Assembly: GCF_013315695.1 (NCBI RefSeq)
Contig: NZ_CP054353.1
Source of the DNA: Escherichia coli
GTDB taxonomy: Bacteria > Pseudomonadota > Gammaproteobacteria > Enterobacterales > Enterobacteriaceae
Reading direction: 5' to 3' (one strand)
DNA length: 64,000 nucleotides
The position numbers were made by a program, and so were the translations under genes. Below are positions 58,830 through 64,000 of this stretch, one piece after another. Each line of letters begins with the position of its first letter. The first letter of the stretch is position 1. The notes under the pieces were generated by a model that was not told the DNA's origin, did not search any database, and was given only the letters and a program-made list of their open reading frames with translations.

Positions 58830-59693
58830 ATGCAAAAAATATTAGGTTTACTGGTGGTGCTCGGCTGCGTATTTGGCGGTTATTTTGAAGCGGGCGGCCA
58901 ATTAGTGGCTATCTGGCAGCCTGCAGAGATAGTTATTATTTTAGGTGCTGGTTTCGGGGCGATGATTATTGGGAACCCGAAACATGTGCTGAAAGAGATT
59001 GCCCATCAAATTAAAGGCGTGATCAGTAAAAAACAGCTCGGGCCGGAGTTTCAGCGCCAGCTATTAATGTGCCTGTATGAGTTGCTTGAAATGGTACAAA
59101 ACGGCGGTCTGCGGATGTTGGATCAGCATATTGAGCAGCCGGAAGAGAGTACCGTTTTCCAGAAATACCCGCTGGTGTTAACCCAGAAGCGGCTGGTGAC
59201 TTTTATTGCCGATAACTTTCGCCTGATGGCGATGGGTAAAATCGACGCCCATGAACTGGAAGGCATTCTCGATCAGGAGCTGGATACCGCCGAAGAGTCG
59301 CTGCTAACGCCGTCACGCTCGCTGCAACGGACCGCCGAAGCGATGCCGGGATTTGGTATTTGTGCAGCAGTGTTGGGCATCATCATTACCATGCAGTCGA
59401 TTGACGGCTCTATCGCCCTGATCGGCCTGAAAGTGGCGGCAGCGCTGGTGGGGACGTTTTTAGGCGTGTTTATCTGCTACTGCCTGATGGATCCGCTTGC
59501 CAACGCCATGGAACAACAGGCGCGGGCGGAACATTCGCTGCTGGAGTGTGTGCGTACCGTGCTGGTGGCCCAGGCGGGCGGCAAACCGACGCTGTTGGCG
59601 GTGGACGCCGGGCGTAAGTTGCTGCATCTGGCGTCCAAACCGACCTTCGCCAACCTCGACGCGTGGGTGAATGCGATGCTGGAGCAAGAATAA
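58830..59693 (+). CDS. lafT: Flag-2 stator protein, MotA homologue
   Basis: 287 aa, four TM segments. Confidence 0.9.
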   Translation: MQKILGLLVVLGCVFGGYFEAGGQLVAIWQPAEIVIILGAGFGAMIIGNPKHVLKEIAHQIKGVISKKQLGPEFQRQLLMCLYELLEMVQNGGLRMLDQHIEQPEESTVFQKYPLVLTQKRLVTFIADNFRLMAMGKIDAHELEGILDQELDTAEESLLTPSRSLQRTAEAMPGFGICAAVLGIIITMQSIDGSIALIGLKVAAALVGTFLGVFICYCLMDPLANAMEQQARAEHSLLECVRTVLVAQAGGKPTLLAVDAGRKLLHLASKPTFANLDAWVNAMLEQE

Positions 59694-59695
59694 GC

Positions 59696-60619
59696 ATGAG
59701 AAAGACGGGCAACCGCCGCGAGCGTGGGGCAAAAACCACCATCGTCCGGCGGCAGATCAAAAAGAATCATGCCGGGCATCATGGCGGGGCGTGGAAGGTG
59801 GCGTTCGCCGACTTTACCCTGGCGATGATGGCGCTATTTATGACGCTGTGGATTGTCAACAGCGTCAGTAAATCCGAGCGTGAAAGCATTATCGCCGCGC
59901 TGCACGGGCAGTCGATTTTTAATGGTGGAGGGCTGTCGCCGTTAAATAAAATCAGCCCGTCTCATCCGCCAAAACCTGCCACCGTGGCGGTGCCGGAAGA
60001 GACGGAGAAAAAAGCGCGTGACGTCAATGAGAAAACGGCGCTGCTGAAGAAGAAATCCGCTACTGAGCTTGGCGAGCTGGCGACCAGTATCAACACTATT
60101 GCCCGTGATGCACATATGGAAGCGAATCTGGAGATGGAGATTGTTCCCCAGGGACTGCGCGTGCTGATTAAAGATGACCAGAACCGCAATATGTTTGAAC
60201 GCGGCAGCGCACAGATTATGCCGTTCTTTAAAACTTTGCTGGTGGAGTTAGCGCCGGTTTTTGATTCGCTCGACAATAAGATCATCATCACCGGGCATAC
60301 CGATGCGATGGCCTACAAAAACAATATCTACAACAACTGGAACCTTTCGGGTGACCGCGCGCTTTCGGCTCGTCGGGTGCTGGAAGAGGCAGGAATGCCG
60401 GAAGATAAAGTGATGCAGGTGAGCGCAATGGCGGACCAGATGCTGCTGGATGCCAAAAATCCGCAAAGCGCGGGCAACCGGCGCATTGAGATTATGGTGC
60501 TGACTAAAAGCGCGTCCGATACGCTGTATCAATACTTTGGTCAGCATGGGGATAAAGTGGTGCAGCCGCTGGTGCAAAAGCTGGATAAGCAGCAGGTACT
60601 TTCACAGCGAACGCGCTAG
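59696..60619 (+). CDS. lafU: Flag-2 stator protein, MotB homologue (full length)
   Basis: ATG 59696 (MRKTGNRRERG...); single TM helix; C-terminal OmpA-like peptidoglycan-binding domain. Confidence 0.88.
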   Translation: MRKTGNRRERGAKTTIVRRQIKKNHAGHHGGAWKVAFADFTLAMMALFMTLWIVNSVSKSERESIIAALHGQSIFNGGGLSPLNKISPSHPPKPATVAVPEETEKKARDVNEKTALLKKKSATELGELATSINTIARDAHMEANLEMEIVPQGLRVLIKDDQNRNMFERGSAQIMPFFKTLLVELAPVFDSLDNKIIITGHTDAMAYKNNIYNNWNLSGDRALSARRVLEEAGMPEDKVMQVSAMADQMLLDAKNPQSAGNRRIEIMVLTKSASDTLYQYFGQHGDKVVQPLVQKLDKQQVLSQRTR

Positions 60620-60689: not shown

Positions 60690-61745
60690 ATGCGTAAAAT
60701 CATTCATGTGGATATGGACTGCTTTTTCGCAGCGGTGGAGATGCGCGACAATCCCGCTCTGCGCGATATCCCTATTGCTATTGGCGGCAGCCGCGAACGT
60801 CGGGGGGTGATCAGCACCGCCAATTATCCCGCGCGTAAATTTGGCGTACGCAGCGCTATGCCGACAGGGATGGCGCTCAAATTATGCCCACATCTCACCT
60901 TGCTTCCGGGGCGCTTTGACGCCTACAAAGAAGCCTCAAATCATATCCGAGAAATTTTCTCGCGCTATACCTCGCGCATTGAACCGTTATCACTGGATGA
61001 AGCCTATCTCGACGTCACCGATAGTGTGCATTGCCACGGTTCTGCGACCCTCATCGCCAAGGAAATCCGTCAGACGATCTTTAACGAGCTGCAACTGACG
61101 GCATCTGCGGGCGTTGCGCCGGTAAAGTTTCTCGCCAAAATTGCTTCCGACATGAATAAACCCAACGGTCAGTTTGTGATTACGCCGGCAGAAGTTCCGG
61201 CATTTCTGCAAACCTTACCGCTGGCAAAAATTCCCGGCGTCGGCAAAGTCTCGGCGGCAAAACTGGAAGCGATGGGGCTACGGACCTGCGGCGATGTACA
61301 AAAGTGTGATCTGGTGACTCTGCTCAAACGTTTTGGCAAATTTGGACGCATTTTGTGGGAGCGTAGTCAGGGCATTGACGAGCGCGACGTTAACAGCGAG
61401 CGGTTGCGAAAATCCGTCGGCGTGGAACGCACGATGGCGGAAGATATTCATCACTGGTCTGAATGTGAAGCGATTATCGAGCGGCTGTATCCTGAACTTG
61501 AACGCCGTCTGGCAAAGGTAAAACCTGATTTACTGATTGCTCGCCAGGGGGTGAAATTAAAGTTTGATGATTTTCAGCAAACCACTCAGGAGCACGTCTG
61601 GCCGCGGCTGAATAAAGCTGACTTAATCGCCACCGCGCGTAAAACCTGGAATGAACGCCGTGGCGGGCGCGGTGTGCGTCTGGTGGGGCTGCATGTGACG
61701 TTGCTTGACCCTCAAATGGAAAGACAACTGGTGCTGGGATTATGA
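60690..61745 (+). CDS. dinB: DNA polymerase IV (Y-family translesion polymerase)
   Basis: 351 aa [33 protein letters not shown]... Confidence 0.95.
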
Positions 61746-61796
61746 TGTATACTATTATGTATATTCTGATGTGCATTATTATGAGGGGATCACTGT

Positions 61797-62090
61797 ATGC
61801 ATCGAATTCTCGCTGAAAAATCGGTCAATATCACTGAGTTACGTAAAAACCCAGCTAAATACTTTATTGATCAACCGGTTGCGGTTCTTTCTAATAATCG
61901 CCCCGCAGGATATCTCTTAAGTGCCAGCGCATTTGAAGCGTTAATGGACATGCTTGCTGAACAAGAGGAGAAAAAACTGGTTAAGGCGCGCTTCCGTCCG
62001 AGTGCCGCAAGATTAGAGGAAATTACACGCCGCGCTGAACAATATCTTAATGATATGACGGATGATGATTTCAATGACTTTAAGGAATAA
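61797..62090 (+). CDS. yafN: Antitoxin YafN
   Basis: 97 aa. Confidence 0.9.
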   Translation: MHRILAEKSVNITELRKNPAKYFIDQPVAVLSNNRPAGYLLSASAFEALMDMLAEQEEKKLVKARFRPSAARLEEITRRAEQYLNDMTDDDFNDFKE

Positions 62091-62092
62091 GG

Positions 62093-62491
62093 ATGCGGGT
62101 ATTCAAAACAAAACTTATTCGCCTGCAACTTACAGCAGAGGAACTTGATGCGTTAACGGCGGATTTTATTTCCTATAAGCGTGACGGTGTTTTGCCAGAT
62201 ATATTTGGTCGCGATGCACTCTACGACGACTCGTTTACCTGGCCATTAATCAAATTTGAGCGAGTTGCTCATATTCATCTGGCAAATGTGAATAATCCAT
62301 TTCCGCCACAGTTGCGCCAATTCAGCAGAACGAATGACGAAGCGCATTTGGTATATTGTCAGGGTGCGTTTGATGAGCAAGCATGGTTGCTCATTGCCAT
62401 TCTGAAACCTGAACCTCATAAACTGGCTCGAGATAACAACCAAATGCATAAAATTGGGAAAATGGCAGAAGCGTTTCGCATGCGTTTTTGA
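62093..62491 (+). CDS. yafO: Toxin YafO (ribosome-dependent mRNA interferase)
   Basis: 132 aa. Confidence 0.9.
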   Translation: MRVFKTKLIRLQLTAEELDALTADFISYKRDGVLPDIFGRDALYDDSFTWPLIKFERVAHIHLANVNNPFPPQLRQFSRTNDEAHLVYCQGAFDEQAWLLIAILKPEPHKLARDNNQMHKIGKMAEAFRMRF

Positions 62492-62500
62492 ATTTATATT

Positions 62501-62953
62501 ATGAATAACATACAAATAAGAAACTATCAGCCTGGCGATTTTCAGCAACTATGCGCTATTTTCATTAGAGCGGTTACGATGACCGCCAGTCAGCATTATT
62601 CACCACAACAAATTGCCGCCTGGGCGCAGATTGACGAATCTCGCTGGAAGGAGAAACTCGCGAAATCACAAGTGCGGATTGCAGTCATTAATGCAAAACT
62701 GGTCGGCTTTATTACCTGCGTTGAACACTATATCGATATGTTATTTGTTGACCCTGAGTACACCCGCCGTGGGGTTGCCAGCGCTTTGTTAAAACCTTTG
62801 ATTAAGTCTGAATCCGAACTTACTGTGGACGCCAGCATAACCGCAAAACCCTTTTTTGAACGTTATGGTTTTCAGACAGTTAAGCAGCAGCGCGTTGAAT
62901 GCCGGGGAGCGTGGTTTACTAATTTTTATATGCGATATAAACCGCAACATTAA
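62501..62953 (+). CDS. yafP: GNAT-family N-acetyltransferase
   Basis: 150 aa. Confidence 0.88.
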   Translation: MNNIQIRNYQPGDFQQLCAIFIRAVTMTASQHYSPQQIAAWAQIDESRWKEKLAKSQVRIAVINAKLVGFITCVEHYIDMLFVDPEYTRRGVASALLKPLIKSESELTVDASITAKPFFERYGFQTVKQQRVECRGAWFTNFYMRYKPQH

Positions 62954-63143
62954 ATCCAGCTTGCAAAGAAAATAACGCCCGCCTAGTATGTGCGCGTTTT
63001 CTTATTCCACAAACTGCAAGGAGGTAAATCATGACAAATCCTTTATCAATGACTCTTTCCAGACCTTTCCAGGATTAATTCTTTTTTTCTTGCCCTGGAT
63101 TCGTCTGCCATTTCCTGATTTTTATTCATAAATGGAATGGTAC

Positions 63144-64000
63144 ATGGGCAAATATATTCGTCCCTTATCTGATGCGGTACTTACCATCGCATCTGATGAC
63201 CTGTGGATCGAGAGTTCAGCGATCCAACAATTACACACCACGGCAAATTTACCCGACATGCAACGCGTAGTAGGGATGCCAGATTTACACCCCGGACGCG
63301 GCTATCCGATTGGCGCAGCGTTCTTCTCCGTAGGCCGTTTTTACCCGGCACTGGTCGGCAATGATATCGGCTGCGGTATGGCGCTATGGCAAACAGATAT
63401 TTTCGCGCGCAAATACAACGCCGATAAGTTTGAAAAGCGATTATCTGCGCTGGATGACGTTGCTGAAGAAAGCTGGCTGGAGGAAAACCTGCCGTCAGCG
63501 TTAGCACAGCATCCGTGGCGCAGCTCGCTGGGTTCCATCGGTGGCGGAAACCACTTCGCAGAACTGCAACAAGTTGATCAAATTATCGACGCTGAACTGT
63601 TTGCACTGACAGGTCTGGATGCGCAGCATCTGCAACTGCTGGTTCATAGCGGCTCGCGGGGTTTGGGCCAGTCTATTTTACAGCGGCATATTGCCTCGTT
63701 TTCGCATCATGGTTTGCCTGAAGGCAGTGACGACGCGCTAAGTTATATTGTGGAACATGATGATGCGCTGGCGTTTGCGCGTATTAATCGCCAGATGATC
63801 GCTTTGCGCATAATGCAACAGGTTAAGGCCACCGGAAGTCCTGTTCTGGATGTGGCGCATAACTTTGTTAGCGCCTGTCAAATCGGCGATCAACAGGGCT
63901 GGTTGCATCGTAAAGGTGCCACGCCGGATGACAACGGTCTGGTGATTATTCCCGGTTCACGCGGTGATTACTCCTGGCTGGTTAAACCTGTTGCGAACGA
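63144..64000 (+). CDS. RtcB-family RNA ligase-like protein, 5' portion (continues past window end; not in ORF track because no stop is reached)
   Basis: Manual translation from ATG 63144 is open to the window end: MGKYIRPLSDAVL...VGMPDLHPGRGYPIGAAF...GNDIGCGM...GGGNHFAEL...HSGSRGLG; an in-frame ATG also exists at 63132. Confidence 0.8.
   Translation, partial: MGKYIRPLSDAVLTIASDDLWIESSAIQQLHTTANLPDMQRVVGMPDLHPGRGYPIGAAFFSVGRFYPALVGNDIGCGMALWQTDIFARKYNADKFEKRLSALDDVAEESWLEENLPSALAQHPWRSSLGSIGGGNHFAELQQVDQIIDAELFALTGLDAQHLQLLVHSGSRGLGQSILQRHIASFSHHGLPEGSDDALSYIVEHDDALAFARINRQMIALRIMQQVKATGSPVLDVAHNFVSACQIGDQQGWLHRKGATPDDNGLVIIPGSRGDYSWLVKPVAN

What the first reader, a model, noticed from the sequence alone, without database searches (positions are those of the whole stretch)
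63018..64000. Intact RtcB-like gene preceded by a 15-codon upstream ORF with a strong RBS
From ATG 63144 the plus strand is open to the window end and encodes RtcB hallmark motifs; this position is a pseudogene in K-12. Upstream, AAGGAGG plus a 6-nt spacer precedes ATG 63031, encoding MTNPLSMTLSRPFQD (63031..63078), followed by a T-rich tract: a possible leader peptide or translational control element.
Basis: partly seen in the sequence, partly recalled or inferred. Interest (0 to 1): 0.45.

Follow-up and report, generated by a model that had tools for sequence, protein, structure and literature searches.

The report
Leader ORF controlling ribosome-repair operon
The 15-codon ORF in front of the E. 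coli ribosome-repair genes rtcB2-prfH is real, conserved across Proteobacteria, and is the counterpart of a stalled-ribosome-sensing leader peptide (PA5471.1) already proven in Pseudomonas aeruginosa, so the repair operon is probably switched on when ribosomes stall.

Summary
AAGGAGG (63018-24), a 6-nt spacer, then ATG 63031 to TAA 63078 encodes MTNPLSMTLSRPFQD. From ATG 63144 an RtcB2-type ligase runs off the window. A 100%-identical genome shows it intact (379 aa) with prfH behind it.

The uORF is not chance. An SD-led ORF of 12-16 codons precedes rtcB2 in 21 of 21 gamma/beta-proteobacterial loci examined, sharing the nucleotide core ACCCUUUGCAGG. The P. aeruginosa copy, MIQFSTLCRLRLA, is PA5471.1, the published leader peptide of armZ(rtcB2)-PA5470(prfH); there, early ribosome stalling switches the operon on.

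The peptide varies freely; RNA pairings are what is conserved, with compensatory changes:
- uORF SD with the uORF core.
- uORF core with a downstream segment.
- That segment with the rtcB2 SD, AUG and codons 2-4.

I found no intrinsic terminator in the compact E. coli leader, so I infer control of translation initiation there. That step is not shown.

Rfam has no match, RefSeq annotates nothing at the uORF, and none of the RtcB2-PrfH papers I read mentions a leader.

Verdict: real, supported, a new member of a known kind. It links the E. coli ribosome-repair and Pseudomonas MexXY literatures.

The parts
62961..62989 (+). Predicted sigma-70-type promoter of the leader: -35 TTGCAA (62961-66), 17-nt spacer, -10 TAGTAT (62984-89). 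The transcription start is predicted near 62996.
   Evidence: Sequence. The pattern TTGCnn-17-TAnnAT lies 40-49 nt upstream of the uORF AUG in most of 21 species. TTGC and TAnTAT are invariant among the enteric genera aligned. It falls below the threshold of the generic scan. The P. aeruginosa promoter is described as constitutive (PMC13041342). The prediction was not tested here.
63015..63024 (+). Segment 1: UGCAAGGAGG, which is the Shine-Dalgarno of the uORF (AAGGAGG 63018-24) and the 5' arm of helix H0.
   Evidence: UGCAAAGG pairs with CCUUUGCA inside the uORF: 87.5-93% of cells are paired against 36-64% in slid controls, and Xenorhabdus has a compensatory C-G to A-U change.
63031..63078 (+). 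Leader ORF of 15 codons, MTNPLSMTLSRPFQD, stop TAA. It is the counterpart of P. aeruginosa PA5471.1. Position 63059 (C, giving Ser10) is a minority variant; it is G (Cys10) in the 7 other E. coli strains aligned.
   Evidence: The AUG-to-core distance is 22, 25 or 28 nt, always in frame, in 20 of 21 species (read).
63053..63073 (+). Segment 2, inside the uORF: CUCUUUCC (3' arm of H0), then (G/C)CAGAC 63059-64 and CCAGG 63069-73 (5' arm of H1).
   Evidence: The core ACCCUUUGCAGG is conserved at nucleotide level even where the reading frame differs (Achromobacter).
63079..63091 (+). T-rich tract UUCUUUUUUUCUU, which together with the stop codon forms the loop of H1. It is not a terminator tail.
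   Evidence: No intrinsic-terminator-like site was found in 63031-63143.
63090..63114 (+). Segment 3. It holds UUGCCC (63090-95, pairs with rtcB2 codons 2-3), CCUGG (63094-98) and GUCUGC (63103-08), which form the 3' arm of H1, and the anti-SD UGCCAUUUC (63106-14). The H1 arm and the sequestering strand share 63094-95 and 63106-08.
63134..63151 (+). Segment 4, the rtcB2 translation initiation region: GGAAUGGUA (63134-42), AUG (63144-46) and GGGCAA (63146-51). It is paired to segment 3 in the closed form.
   Evidence: RNAduplex gives -19.3 kcal/mol, z -3.5 against shuffled initiation regions, and the same two-part pairing appears in most compact leaders. On the 13-sequence alignment 88.5% of cells are paired against 27-49% when slid, and 0 of 500 shuffles reach the covariation score.
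63144..64000 (+). rtcB2 (RNA ligase RtcB family, 'release factor H-coupled'), codons 1-285 of 379. It runs off the window; prfH follows in the identical genome.

Best explanation
The 15-codon ORF is the enterobacterial counterpart of the P. aeruginosa leader peptide PA5471.1. It is the sensing part of a ribosome-mediated attenuator in the 5' leader of the rtcB2-prfH ribosome-repair operon.

The leader is transcribed from its own sigma-70-like promoter and contains four interacting RNA segments:
- Segment 1 is the uORF Shine-Dalgarno region.
- Segment 2 lies in uORF codons 8-14.
- Segment 3 lies after the uORF.
- Segment 4 is the rtcB2 SD, AUG and codons 2-4.

When the uORF is translated to its stop, segment 2 is inside the ribosome or re-pairs with segment 1. 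Segment 3 then closes the rtcB2 initiation region, and the operon is off.

When a ribosome is held on the SD and the first few codons, segment 1 is masked and segment 2 is free to pair with segment 3 (helix H1). H1 overlaps both halves of the sequestering strand, so the rtcB2 initiation region loosens and healthy ribosomes can make RtcB2 and PrfH. Candidates for such a held ribosome are one blocked by a drug, one starved of charged tRNA, or one made decoding-defective by colicin E3 or CdiA-CT cleavage.

Shown here: the uORF, its conservation, its homology to PA5471.1, and the three conserved pairings with compensatory changes. Taken from the P. aeruginosa literature: the direction of the switch (full translation gives off; early stalling, an early stop or leader deletion gives on). 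Inferred: that the E. coli output acts on translation initiation rather than on transcription termination, and that damaged ribosomes are a natural input.
For: Homology. P. aeruginosa ArmZ is 59% identical to E. coli RtcB2 over 375 aa and is followed by a 204-aa RF-1-family gene. Its leader reads CGCAAAGGAGG-N8-AUG AUU CAG UUC UCU ACC CUU UGC AGG CUG CGC CUG GCC UAA, i.e. MIQFSTLCRLRLA. That matches the published Q3, F4, C7 and C12 of PA5471.1. It shares the SD context, the core and the downstream GGUCUGCC...GGAUUGG...AUGGGCAA with E. coli.

Breadth. 21 of 21 gamma/beta-proteobacterial loci carry the uORF. A covariance model built from 8 Enterobacteriaceae hits only rtcB2 leaders with E below 0.1 in 624 kb. 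It scores 150.8 bits in the window, E 1e-11 in Serratia, 4e-8 in Aquitalea, and below 0.05 in Pseudomonas, Cupriavidus and Xenorhabdus.

The constraint is on RNA, not on the peptide. The N-terminal residues vary freely, there are non-synonymous changes in the internal loops, and Achromobacter keeps the nucleotides in a different frame.

Pairings.
- H1: 83-85% of cells paired against 15-50% when slid. One pair shows G-C in 9, A-U in 6 and G-U in 1 sequence; Serratia silvae has GCGGG/CCCGC where its congener has GCAGG/CCUGC.
- H0.
- Closed helix: 5 pairs with compensatory change, and 0 of 500 shuffles reach the score. Serratia silvae changes RtcB2 Gly2 to Ser together with the partner base, and Cupriavidus has GUUGCCC/GGGCAAC.

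Selection within E. coli. The leader is 98.4-99.2% identical while rtcB2 is 93.6-95.2% identical, with 10-13% divergence at third codon positions.

Published genetics fits the segments. Q3Am and leader deletion give constitutive armZ. The clinical deletion of nucleotides 16-22 removes exactly ACCCUUU, the H0-specific half of segment 2 (my reading of the sequence). E. coli ykfJ was reported to be inducible by 4-azaleucine (PMC3516279).
Against: There is no experimental evidence for E. coli in anything I could read. The uORF is absent from one Ribo-seq small-ORF supplement for K-12, although K-12 has a weakened -10 element.

The masking simulation gives only a modest effect. The mean unpaired probability of the rtcB2 initiation region is 0.35-0.36 with no ribosome or with a ribosome on the AUG, against 0.20-0.25 with a ribosome on the 3' half of the uORF. 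Across 21 species the medians are 0.36 and 0.25-0.26, and part of the SD stays paired in every state.

The published P. aeruginosa model is transcription attenuation, not translational control.

The covariation counts rest on 13-16 related sequences, and one of the alignments was fitted to the tested structure.

The window strain itself carries a G-to-C change that weakens H0 and removes the outermost H1 pair.
Confidence: 0.7

Rival explanations
1. Same leader ORF and same sensing logic, but the output is premature transcription termination (intrinsic or Rho-dependent) between the uORF and rtcB2, as proposed for P. aeruginosa PA5471.1. The pairing with the rtcB2 start would then be secondary.
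For: The published model for the orthologous operon says that the segment 3:4 hairpin acts as a transcription terminator (PMC13041342 and PMC12057347). The E. coli spacer 63079-63130 is pyrimidine-rich and G-poor, as Rho-binding sites are (sequence).
Against: The simple scan found no hairpin-plus-U-tract site in window 63031-63143 or in the P. aeruginosa leader. The E. coli leader is only 65 nt from uORF stop to rtcB2 AUG. The conserved, covarying 3' helices enclose the SD, the AUG and codons 2-4, which is what translational control looks like. The 2025 review itself says the attenuation mechanism still needs confirmation. Rho was not testable here.
Confidence: 0.22
2. The conserved leader is a structured RNA that responds to something other than uORF translation, for example a protein or a small RNA. 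The short ORF would be tolerated but irrelevant.
For: Conservation is mainly at the nucleotide and pairing level, and the peptide sequence is free to vary.
Against: The SD, the AUG and an open frame through the core are kept in all 21 loci. Length changes between the AUG and the core are all multiples of three (distances of 22, 25 and 28 nt). The core-to-stop distance is 17 nt in most species. The other two frames carry stops in most species. In P. aeruginosa a nonsense mutation at codon 3 changes expression. Rfam has no match.
Confidence: 0.05
3. The uORF encodes a small protein that acts in trans, or it simply feeds ribosomes to rtcB2 by termination and reinitiation.
For: The SD is very strong. 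15-residue functional proteins do exist in E. coli (for example the one encoded by Spot 42, PMC8916003, listed).
Against: Only L-C-R, which is imposed by the RNA core, is shared; everything else in the peptide varies. The distance from uORF stop to rtcB2 AUG ranges from 60 to 292 nt, and reaches about 190 nt in E. coli strains carrying the ERIC insertion. I judge such variable and long distances a poor fit for reinitiation coupling.
Confidence: 0.03

Closest known systems
PA5471.1 leader peptide of the armZ (PA5471)-PA5470 (prfH) operon, Pseudomonas aeruginosa (Morita et al. 2009, as described in PMC3516279, PMC12057347 and PMC13041342)
   Same: The downstream genes are orthologous: ArmZ is 59% identical to RtcB2 and a prfH follows. 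Both have a strong SD of the form GCAAAGGAGG. Both leader ORFs are 13-15 codons long and share the core ACC CUU UGC AGG (T-L-C-R). Both have the downstream G(G/U)CUGCC segment and GGAUUGG...AUGGGCAA at the main start. Both promoters look constitutive.
   Different: The E. coli leader is compact: 65 nt from uORF stop to the main AUG, against about 210 nt in P. aeruginosa (uORF stop at L218 2288, armZ AUG at 2501). It has no terminator-like hairpin, and segment 3 pairs directly with the rtcB2 initiation region. The P. aeruginosa anti-SD looks degenerate. E. coli has no MexZ/MexXY output; the product is the ribosome-repair pair itself. No experiments exist for E. coli in the literature I could read.
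ErmCL-ermC and cat/cmlA leader-peptide translation attenuation
   Same: Four RNA segments are involved. A ribosome held on the leader frees segment 2 to pair with segment 3, which exposes the SD and AUG of the downstream gene. The response is to impaired translation.
   Different: Those systems need a specific arrest peptide together with a drug in the exit tunnel. Here the peptide is not conserved, and segment 1 is the uORF's own SD region rather than codons inside the ORF.
ToiL-topAI and other 'generic' stalling sensors
   Same: A short leader ORF senses several ribosome inhibitors through stalling and remodels the downstream RNA.
   Different: The sequence and the target genes are unrelated, and Rho is an established part of that system.
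RtcR/sigma-54 control of rtcBA (the other E. coli RtcB)
   Same: It induces an RtcB-family RNA repair ligase when the translation apparatus is damaged (PMC5175333, PMC12606134; listed).
   Different: It is a transcriptional activator that senses RNA ligands, with no leader ORF. RtcB1 and RtcB2 are distinct subfamilies.

Membership tests
RtcB2 ('release factor H-coupled RtcB', NCBIfam NF007153 / TIGR03073) | Profile score above the curated cut-off | tested here: met
   The full-length protein from the 100%-identical genome scores 640 bits (cut-off 407) and 621.7 bits (cut-off 271.8). The window fragment of 285 aa scores 470.4 and 467.7 bits.
RtcB2 ('release factor H-coupled RtcB', NCBIfam NF007153 / TIGR03073) | A prfH gene immediately downstream, with overlapping stop and start codons | tested here: met
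   This lies outside the window. In NZ_OZ547117 the prfH start overlaps the rtcB2 stop by 4 nt. PrfH scores 326.6 bits on TIGR03072 (cut-off 166.65), and the GGQ motif is present.
RtcB2 ('release factor H-coupled RtcB', NCBIfam NF007153 / TIGR03073) | Catalytic histidine (His294, mutated to Asn in PMC9304027) | tested here: met
   His294 is present in ...SLAHGAGRKW... of the identical genome's protein. The codon lies beyond the window end. The H294N construct is named.
PA5471.1-type leader of rtcB2/armZ-prfH operons | A short SD-led ORF upstream of an RtcB2-family gene that is followed by prfH | tested here: met
   Window 63018-63078. Present in all 21 gamma/beta-proteobacterial loci examined.
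PA5471.1-type leader of rtcB2/armZ-prfH operons | Sequence homology to PA5471.1 and its flanks | tested here: met
   Shared elements are GCAA(A)GGAGG, the core CUUUGCAG(G/A), the G(G/U)CUGCC segment, and GGA(A/U)UGG-N-AUGGGCAA. The model built from Enterobacteriaceae hits the P. aeruginosa 5' module at 16 bits, E 0.011 in 6 kb, which is weak. It hits other Pseudomonas leaders at E 4e-5 and 0.0065.
PA5471.1-type leader of rtcB2/armZ-prfH operons | Alternative RNA pairings among four segments | tested here: met
   H0, H1 and the closed helix are each well above the slid controls and each show compensatory changes.
PA5471.1-type leader of rtcB2/armZ-prfH operons | The segment 3:4 hairpin acts as a transcription terminator | tested here: not met
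   There is no terminator-like site in window 63031-63143; the 3:4 helix instead encloses the rtcB2 SD and AUG. The same simple scan also finds none in the P. aeruginosa leader, so the test is weak.
PA5471.1-type leader of rtcB2/armZ-prfH operons | Induction by ribosome stalling (ribosome-targeting drugs, an early nonsense codon) | not testable with these tools
   There is only indirect literature: K-12 ykfJ was reported inducible by 4-azaleucine (PMC3516279).
Arrest-peptide leaders (ErmCL, TnaC, SecM type) | A conserved nascent-peptide arrest motif | tested here: not met
   The peptides share only L-C-R, which is imposed by the RNA core. Cys is replaced by Phe, Ser or Gly in some species, and Achromobacter reads the core in another frame.
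Any Rfam 15 family | A covariance-model match | tested here: not met
   No match with E up to 1 in window 61500-64000.

The most novel reading that the evidence does not exclude
Across Proteobacteria, E. coli included, this leader is a translational switch. Its universal output is opening of a conserved helix that buries the rtcB2 SD, AUG and codons 2-4. Its physiological input is the damaged ribosome itself. A colicin-E3- or CdiA-CT-cleaved, decoding-defective ribosome initiates on the very strong uORF SD and then cannot decode codon 2. It stays parked over segment 1, and that turns on the RtcB2-PrfH repair pair. PrfH then releases the parked ribosome and resets the sensor. Together these steps would form a self-contained damage-sensing and repair circuit. 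The published 'transcription terminator' model for P. aeruginosa would then be incomplete.
Probability: 0.3. Interest if true: 0.7.

Novelty: new member of a known kind. Interest (0 to 1): 0.5.

Why it matters
Two literatures describe the same operon without referring to each other. In E. coli, RtcB2-PrfH is studied as a repair system for colicin-E3-cleaved ribosomes, always expressed from plasmids or 'at natural expression levels' whose control is not addressed. In P. aeruginosa the orthologues ArmZ and PA5470 are studied as regulators of the MexXY efflux pump, under the leader peptide PA5471.1. A 2025 review calls regulation of an anti-repressor protein via a leader peptide apparently unique to MexXY.

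The leader is conserved from E. coli to Burkholderiales, and its 100-nt core is present in 99% of complete E. coli genomes. This implies three things:
- Induction by stalled ribosomes is an ancestral property of the repair operon.
- A small set of reporter and toeprint experiments can test it in E. coli.
- The conserved helix over the rtcB2 start codon suggests a translational layer that the published model does not include.

It also supplies an unannotated element to add to genome annotation and to Rfam.

Tried and rejected
- The metagenome pattern scan (GCAAAGGAG-N-ATG-N-TTGCRGG) returned 120 chance matches, none beside an RtcB2.
I recovered them through the look-up of encoding contigs.
- Rfam gave nothing.
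- The generic promoter scan missed the promoter, which scores 8 of 12. I re-scored it by script.
- Intrinsic terminator downstream of the uORF: none found. The T-rich tract is the loop of H1.
- Arrest-peptide idea: rejected because the peptide is not conserved.
- Reinitiation coupling: rejected because the stop-to-AUG distance is 60-292 nt.
- The exact K-12 peptide appears in no held paper and not in the Stringer 2021 supplement. The Weaver 2019 supplements are not held. 'The Cryptic Bacterial Microproteome' does not mention rtcB or prfH.
- Morita et al. 2009 could not be read, so its model is quoted second-hand.
- The equilibrium masking simulation gave only a modest predicted opening. I report it as weak support, not as proof.
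- My regex mis-placed the core in five Enterobacteriaceae and one Orbaceae locus. The correct values (28 and 17 nt for the enterics) are read.
Full report
**1. The observation**

The end of the window is the E. coli region lafU-dinB-yafN-yafO-yafP, followed by a 190-nt intergenic region and an open frame from ATG 63144.

- AAGGAGG at 63018-24, then the spacer TAAATC.
- ATG at 63031, 15 codons (MTNPLSMTLSRPFQD), TAA at 63076-78.
- The run TTCTTTTTTTCTT after the stop.

The 285 residues encoded up to the window end pass the curated cut-offs of NCBIfam NF007153 and TIGR03073 ('release_rtcB').

E. coli AF3 is 100% identical over window 62900-64000. There the gene is an intact 379-aa RtcB-family protein, overlapped by 4 nt by an intact prfH, with pepD on the other strand behind it. 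PrfH passes TIGR03072.

In K-12 the same position holds the ykfJ and prfH pseudogenes, and nothing is annotated between yafP and ykfJ. About half of complete E. coli genomes (2672 of 5426) have the long form.

The gene pair is the known RtcB2-PrfH system, which rescues and re-ligates ribosomes cut by colicin E3 (PMC9223846, PMC9304027, PMC13166195).

**2. The uORF is conserved, first among enteric bacteria**

Synteny (dinB ... rtcB2-prfH, then pepD on the other strand, gpt, frsA) holds in Citrobacter, Salmonella, Klebsiella, Enterobacter, Cronobacter and Kosakonia.

In all of them an SD of the form AAGG(A/G)GG, an AUG 6 nt later and a 15-codon frame sit at the same place.

The first eight codons differ freely (MTNPLSMT, MMTHYKNS, MTLYSLNA, MNTDFQNI ...). 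The last part is conserved as nucleotides rather than as amino acids.

Within E. coli:
- The 100-nt core is present in 5365 of 5426 complete genomes, always at 95% identity or more, and is never annotated.
- The 126-nt leader differs at 1-2 positions between strains whose rtcB2 differs at 41-55 of 857 positions, with 10-13% divergence at third codon positions.

**3. The uORF is conserved far beyond the enterics**

Loci were retrieved by PrfH homology only. An SD-led ORF of 12-16 codons precedes rtcB2 in all 21 gamma- and beta-proteobacterial loci I examined closely. These include Pragia, Serratia, Xenorhabdus, Providencia, Orbaceae, Gilliamella, Pseudomonas, Solimonas, Aquitalea, Parachitinimonas, Cupriavidus and Achromobacter.

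They share the core ACC-CUU-UGC-AGG.
- The AUG-to-core distance is 22, 25 or 28 nt, always in frame, in 20 of 21 loci.
- The core-to-stop distance is 17 nt in most.
- Achromobacter keeps the nucleotides but reads them in another frame.

Three further Burkholderiales loci, and several alphaproteobacterial ones, have different SD-led uORFs. Some of the alphaproteobacterial uORFs overlap the rtcB2 start.

A sigma-70-like promoter (TTGCnn, 17 nt, TAnnAT) lies 40-49 nt upstream of the uORF AUG in most species. In the window it is at 62961-62989.

**4. What is conserved is RNA pairing**

Three helices recur.

*H0.* The uORF SD region UGCAAAGG pairs with CCUUUGCA in the uORF. 87.5-93% of cells are paired, against 36-64% in slid controls. 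Xenorhabdus changes C-G to A-U and thereby changes Cys to Phe.

*H1.* GCAGGYC, plus CCAGG in enterics, pairs with CCUGG...GRCCUGC downstream of the uORF.
- 83-85% of cells are paired, against 15-50% when slid.
- One pair is G-C in 9 sequences, A-U in 6 and G-U in 1.
- Serratia silvae and Providencia have GCGGG/CCCGC.
- The uORF stop codon and the T-rich tract form the loop of H1 in E. coli.

*Closed helix.* AUUGCCC pairs with GGGCAAU (rtcB2 codons 2-4), and UGCCAnnUCC pairs with GGAnUGGUA (the rtcB2 SD).
- RNAduplex finds this two-part pairing in most compact leaders: -19.3 kcal/mol in E. coli, z -3.5.
- Compensatory changes include Serratia silvae GUAUUGCU/AGCAAUAC, which alters RtcB2 residue 2.
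- Others are Cupriavidus GUUGCCC/GGGCAAC and Xenorhabdus CACCCUUAU/AUAAGGUUG.
- On a 13-sequence model-based alignment the closed structure is 88.5% paired, against 27-49% when slid. Five pairs show compensatory change, and 0 of 500 shuffles reach its covariation score. That alignment was fitted to this structure, so the figure leans in its favour.

H0 and H1 share GCA. H1 and the closed helix share 63094-95 and 63106-08. So the pairings form a chain of alternatives.

A covariance model built from eight Enterobacteriaceae finds only rtcB2 leaders with E below 0.1 in 624 kb searched on both strands. That search included the whole window and a sample of unrelated metagenome contigs.

Rfam has no match.

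**5. It has a known relative**

A search for 'ykfJ' led to the MexXY literature.
- P. aeruginosa PA5471 (armZ) is an RtcB-like protein of the same PRK09588 cluster.
- PA5470 is prfH.
- The operon is controlled by a 13-residue leader peptide, PA5471.1.

The published model, as given in PMC13041342 and PMC12057347:
- The promoter is constitutive.
- Complete translation of the leader lets segments 3 and 4 pair, and armZ is off.
- Ribosome stalling, an amber codon at position 3, or deletion of the leader turns armZ on. Reported causes of stalling are aminoglycosides, chloramphenicol, and suhB or cca mutations.

I fetched a P. aeruginosa locus.
- ArmZ is 59% identical to E. coli RtcB2.
- The leader is CGCAAAGGAGG-N8-AUG AUU CAG UUC UCU ACC CUU UGC AGG CUG CGC CUG GCC UAA, i.e. 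MIQFSTLCRLRLA. Its Gln3, Phe4, C7 and C12 are as published.
- The 3' module (GGCUUCGGUCUGCC ... AUGGAUUGGAUUAUGGGCAAC) is present just upstream of armZ.

So the E. coli uORF is the counterpart of PA5471.1. The clinical deletion of nucleotides 16-22 that makes armZ constitutive removes ACCCUUU. By my reading that is the H0-specific half of segment 2, which fits the chain of alternatives above.

A review also reports that truncated K-12 ykfJ is inducible by 4-azaleucine.

**6. How it most likely works in E. coli**

The direction of the switch comes from the Pseudomonas genetics. The anatomy comes from this analysis.

Full translation of the uORF puts segment 2 inside the ribosome. With the stop codon 17 nt after the core, the H0 arm emerges first behind a terminating ribosome (inference). 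Segment 3 then closes the rtcB2 initiation region.

A ribosome held on the SD and the first codons masks segment 1. Segment 2 is then free to form H1, which competes with both halves of the closed helix.

A simple masking simulation agrees in direction. In the E. coli leader, H1 plus a small hairpin switches to the fully closed helix when the 3' half of the uORF is masked. The effect on the unpaired probability of the initiation region is modest: 0.35 against 0.20-0.25.

I found no terminator-like site in the 65-nt spacer. So I favour control of translation initiation in the compact enteric leaders, but Rho-dependent termination could not be tested.

The idea that E3-cleaved, decoding-defective ribosomes are the natural trigger, and that PrfH resets the sensor, is an inference with no data behind it.

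**7. Novelty and score**

The gene pair is known, and the leader-peptide mechanism is known in P. aeruginosa. Three things are not described in any paper I could search:
- The E. coli and enterobacterial leader itself.
- Its breadth across Proteobacteria.
- The conserved helix over the rtcB2 start.

The relevant checks are. I could not read Morita et al. 2009, so it may contain some comparative remarks.

I rate this a new member of a known kind, with interest 0.5.

Noticed in passing
window 63124/63125 (insertion point); L002 2725-2851, L213, L217, L003; L216 (short form): K-12, O157:H7, AR437 and strain 755 carry a 127-nt ERIC/IRU-like repeat inserted in the loop between the anti-SD and the rtcB2 SD. 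The window strain lacks it. Strain 09-00049 has a remnant about 55 nt long. Strain 755 has the insertion together with an rtcB2 annotated as a full-length 1140-nt CDS, so the insertion is not tied to the pseudogene state. The ERIC identification is from memory of the consensus and was not tested.
   Followed up: partly
window 62985 (second base of the predicted -10): The three strains with truncated rtcB2/prfH that I aligned (K-12, O157:H7, AR437) have TGGTAT instead of TAGTAT, losing the conserved A of the -10 hexamer. The five strains with intact rtcB2 keep TAGTAT. This may be promoter decay accompanying pseudogenisation, or simply shared ancestry.
   Followed up: no
window 63059: The window strain has C where the 7 other E. 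coli strains aligned have G (uORF Cys10 to Ser). The change removes the outermost pair of H1 and weakens H0: -9.1 kcal/mol, against -11 to -14 in the other enterics. By the identity bands this is a minority allele.
   Followed up: partly
window 62973-63004: A weak hairpin (ACGC-C-CGC ... GUG-C-GCGU) followed by UUUUCUUAUU overlaps the promoter spacer, the -10 and the start region. It could terminate dinB-yafNOP transcripts. The GC-rich stretch right after the -10 (GTGCGCG) is conserved across genera and resembles a stringent-control discriminator.
   Followed up: no
L058 3730-3830, L059 3690-3775, L060 3745-3810 (approximate): Alphaproteobacterial rtcB2 genes (Hyphomicrobium and Caulobacterales MAGs) also have strong-SD uORFs, but these run into and overlap the rtcB2 start codon out of frame. 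L059 still reads ...A-T-L-C-Q-A. This may be a different architecture of the same control.
   Followed up: no
L011, L012, L016 (about 130-190 nt upstream of rtcB2): Three Burkholderiales loci have SD-led uORFs of 19-20 codons beginning MQK or MPK, without the LCR core. The covariance model gives at best a marginal hit (L012, E 0.19).
   Followed up: no
window 59663-60619 and L001 1-1220: lafU is annotated as full-length in the identical genome, and a motA-like gene lies upstream, so this strain probably carries the lateral-flagella (Flag-2) cluster. The K-12 derivative AML003_par (L002) shows a shorter lafU.
   Followed up: no
L003 550-2054: Strain AR437 lacks the yafN-yafO toxin-antitoxin pair; dinB is followed directly by yafP, overlapping it. 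The same is seen in Klebsiella (L086).
   Followed up: no
E. coli genome searches: 15 matches to the region lie on plasmid records rather than chromosomes.
   Followed up: no
L004, L007, L008, L064, L091, L218 (just upstream of the CCUGCC segment): Outside the Enterobacteriaceae, segment 3 contains a small hairpin GGC-UNCG-GCC (UUCG or UCCG tetraloop; CUUG or CAAG in two betaproteobacteria). It could hold the 3' arm of H1 when the uORF is being translated. In Solimonas a local CAGGCC/GGCCUG hairpin mimics segment 2.
   Followed up: no
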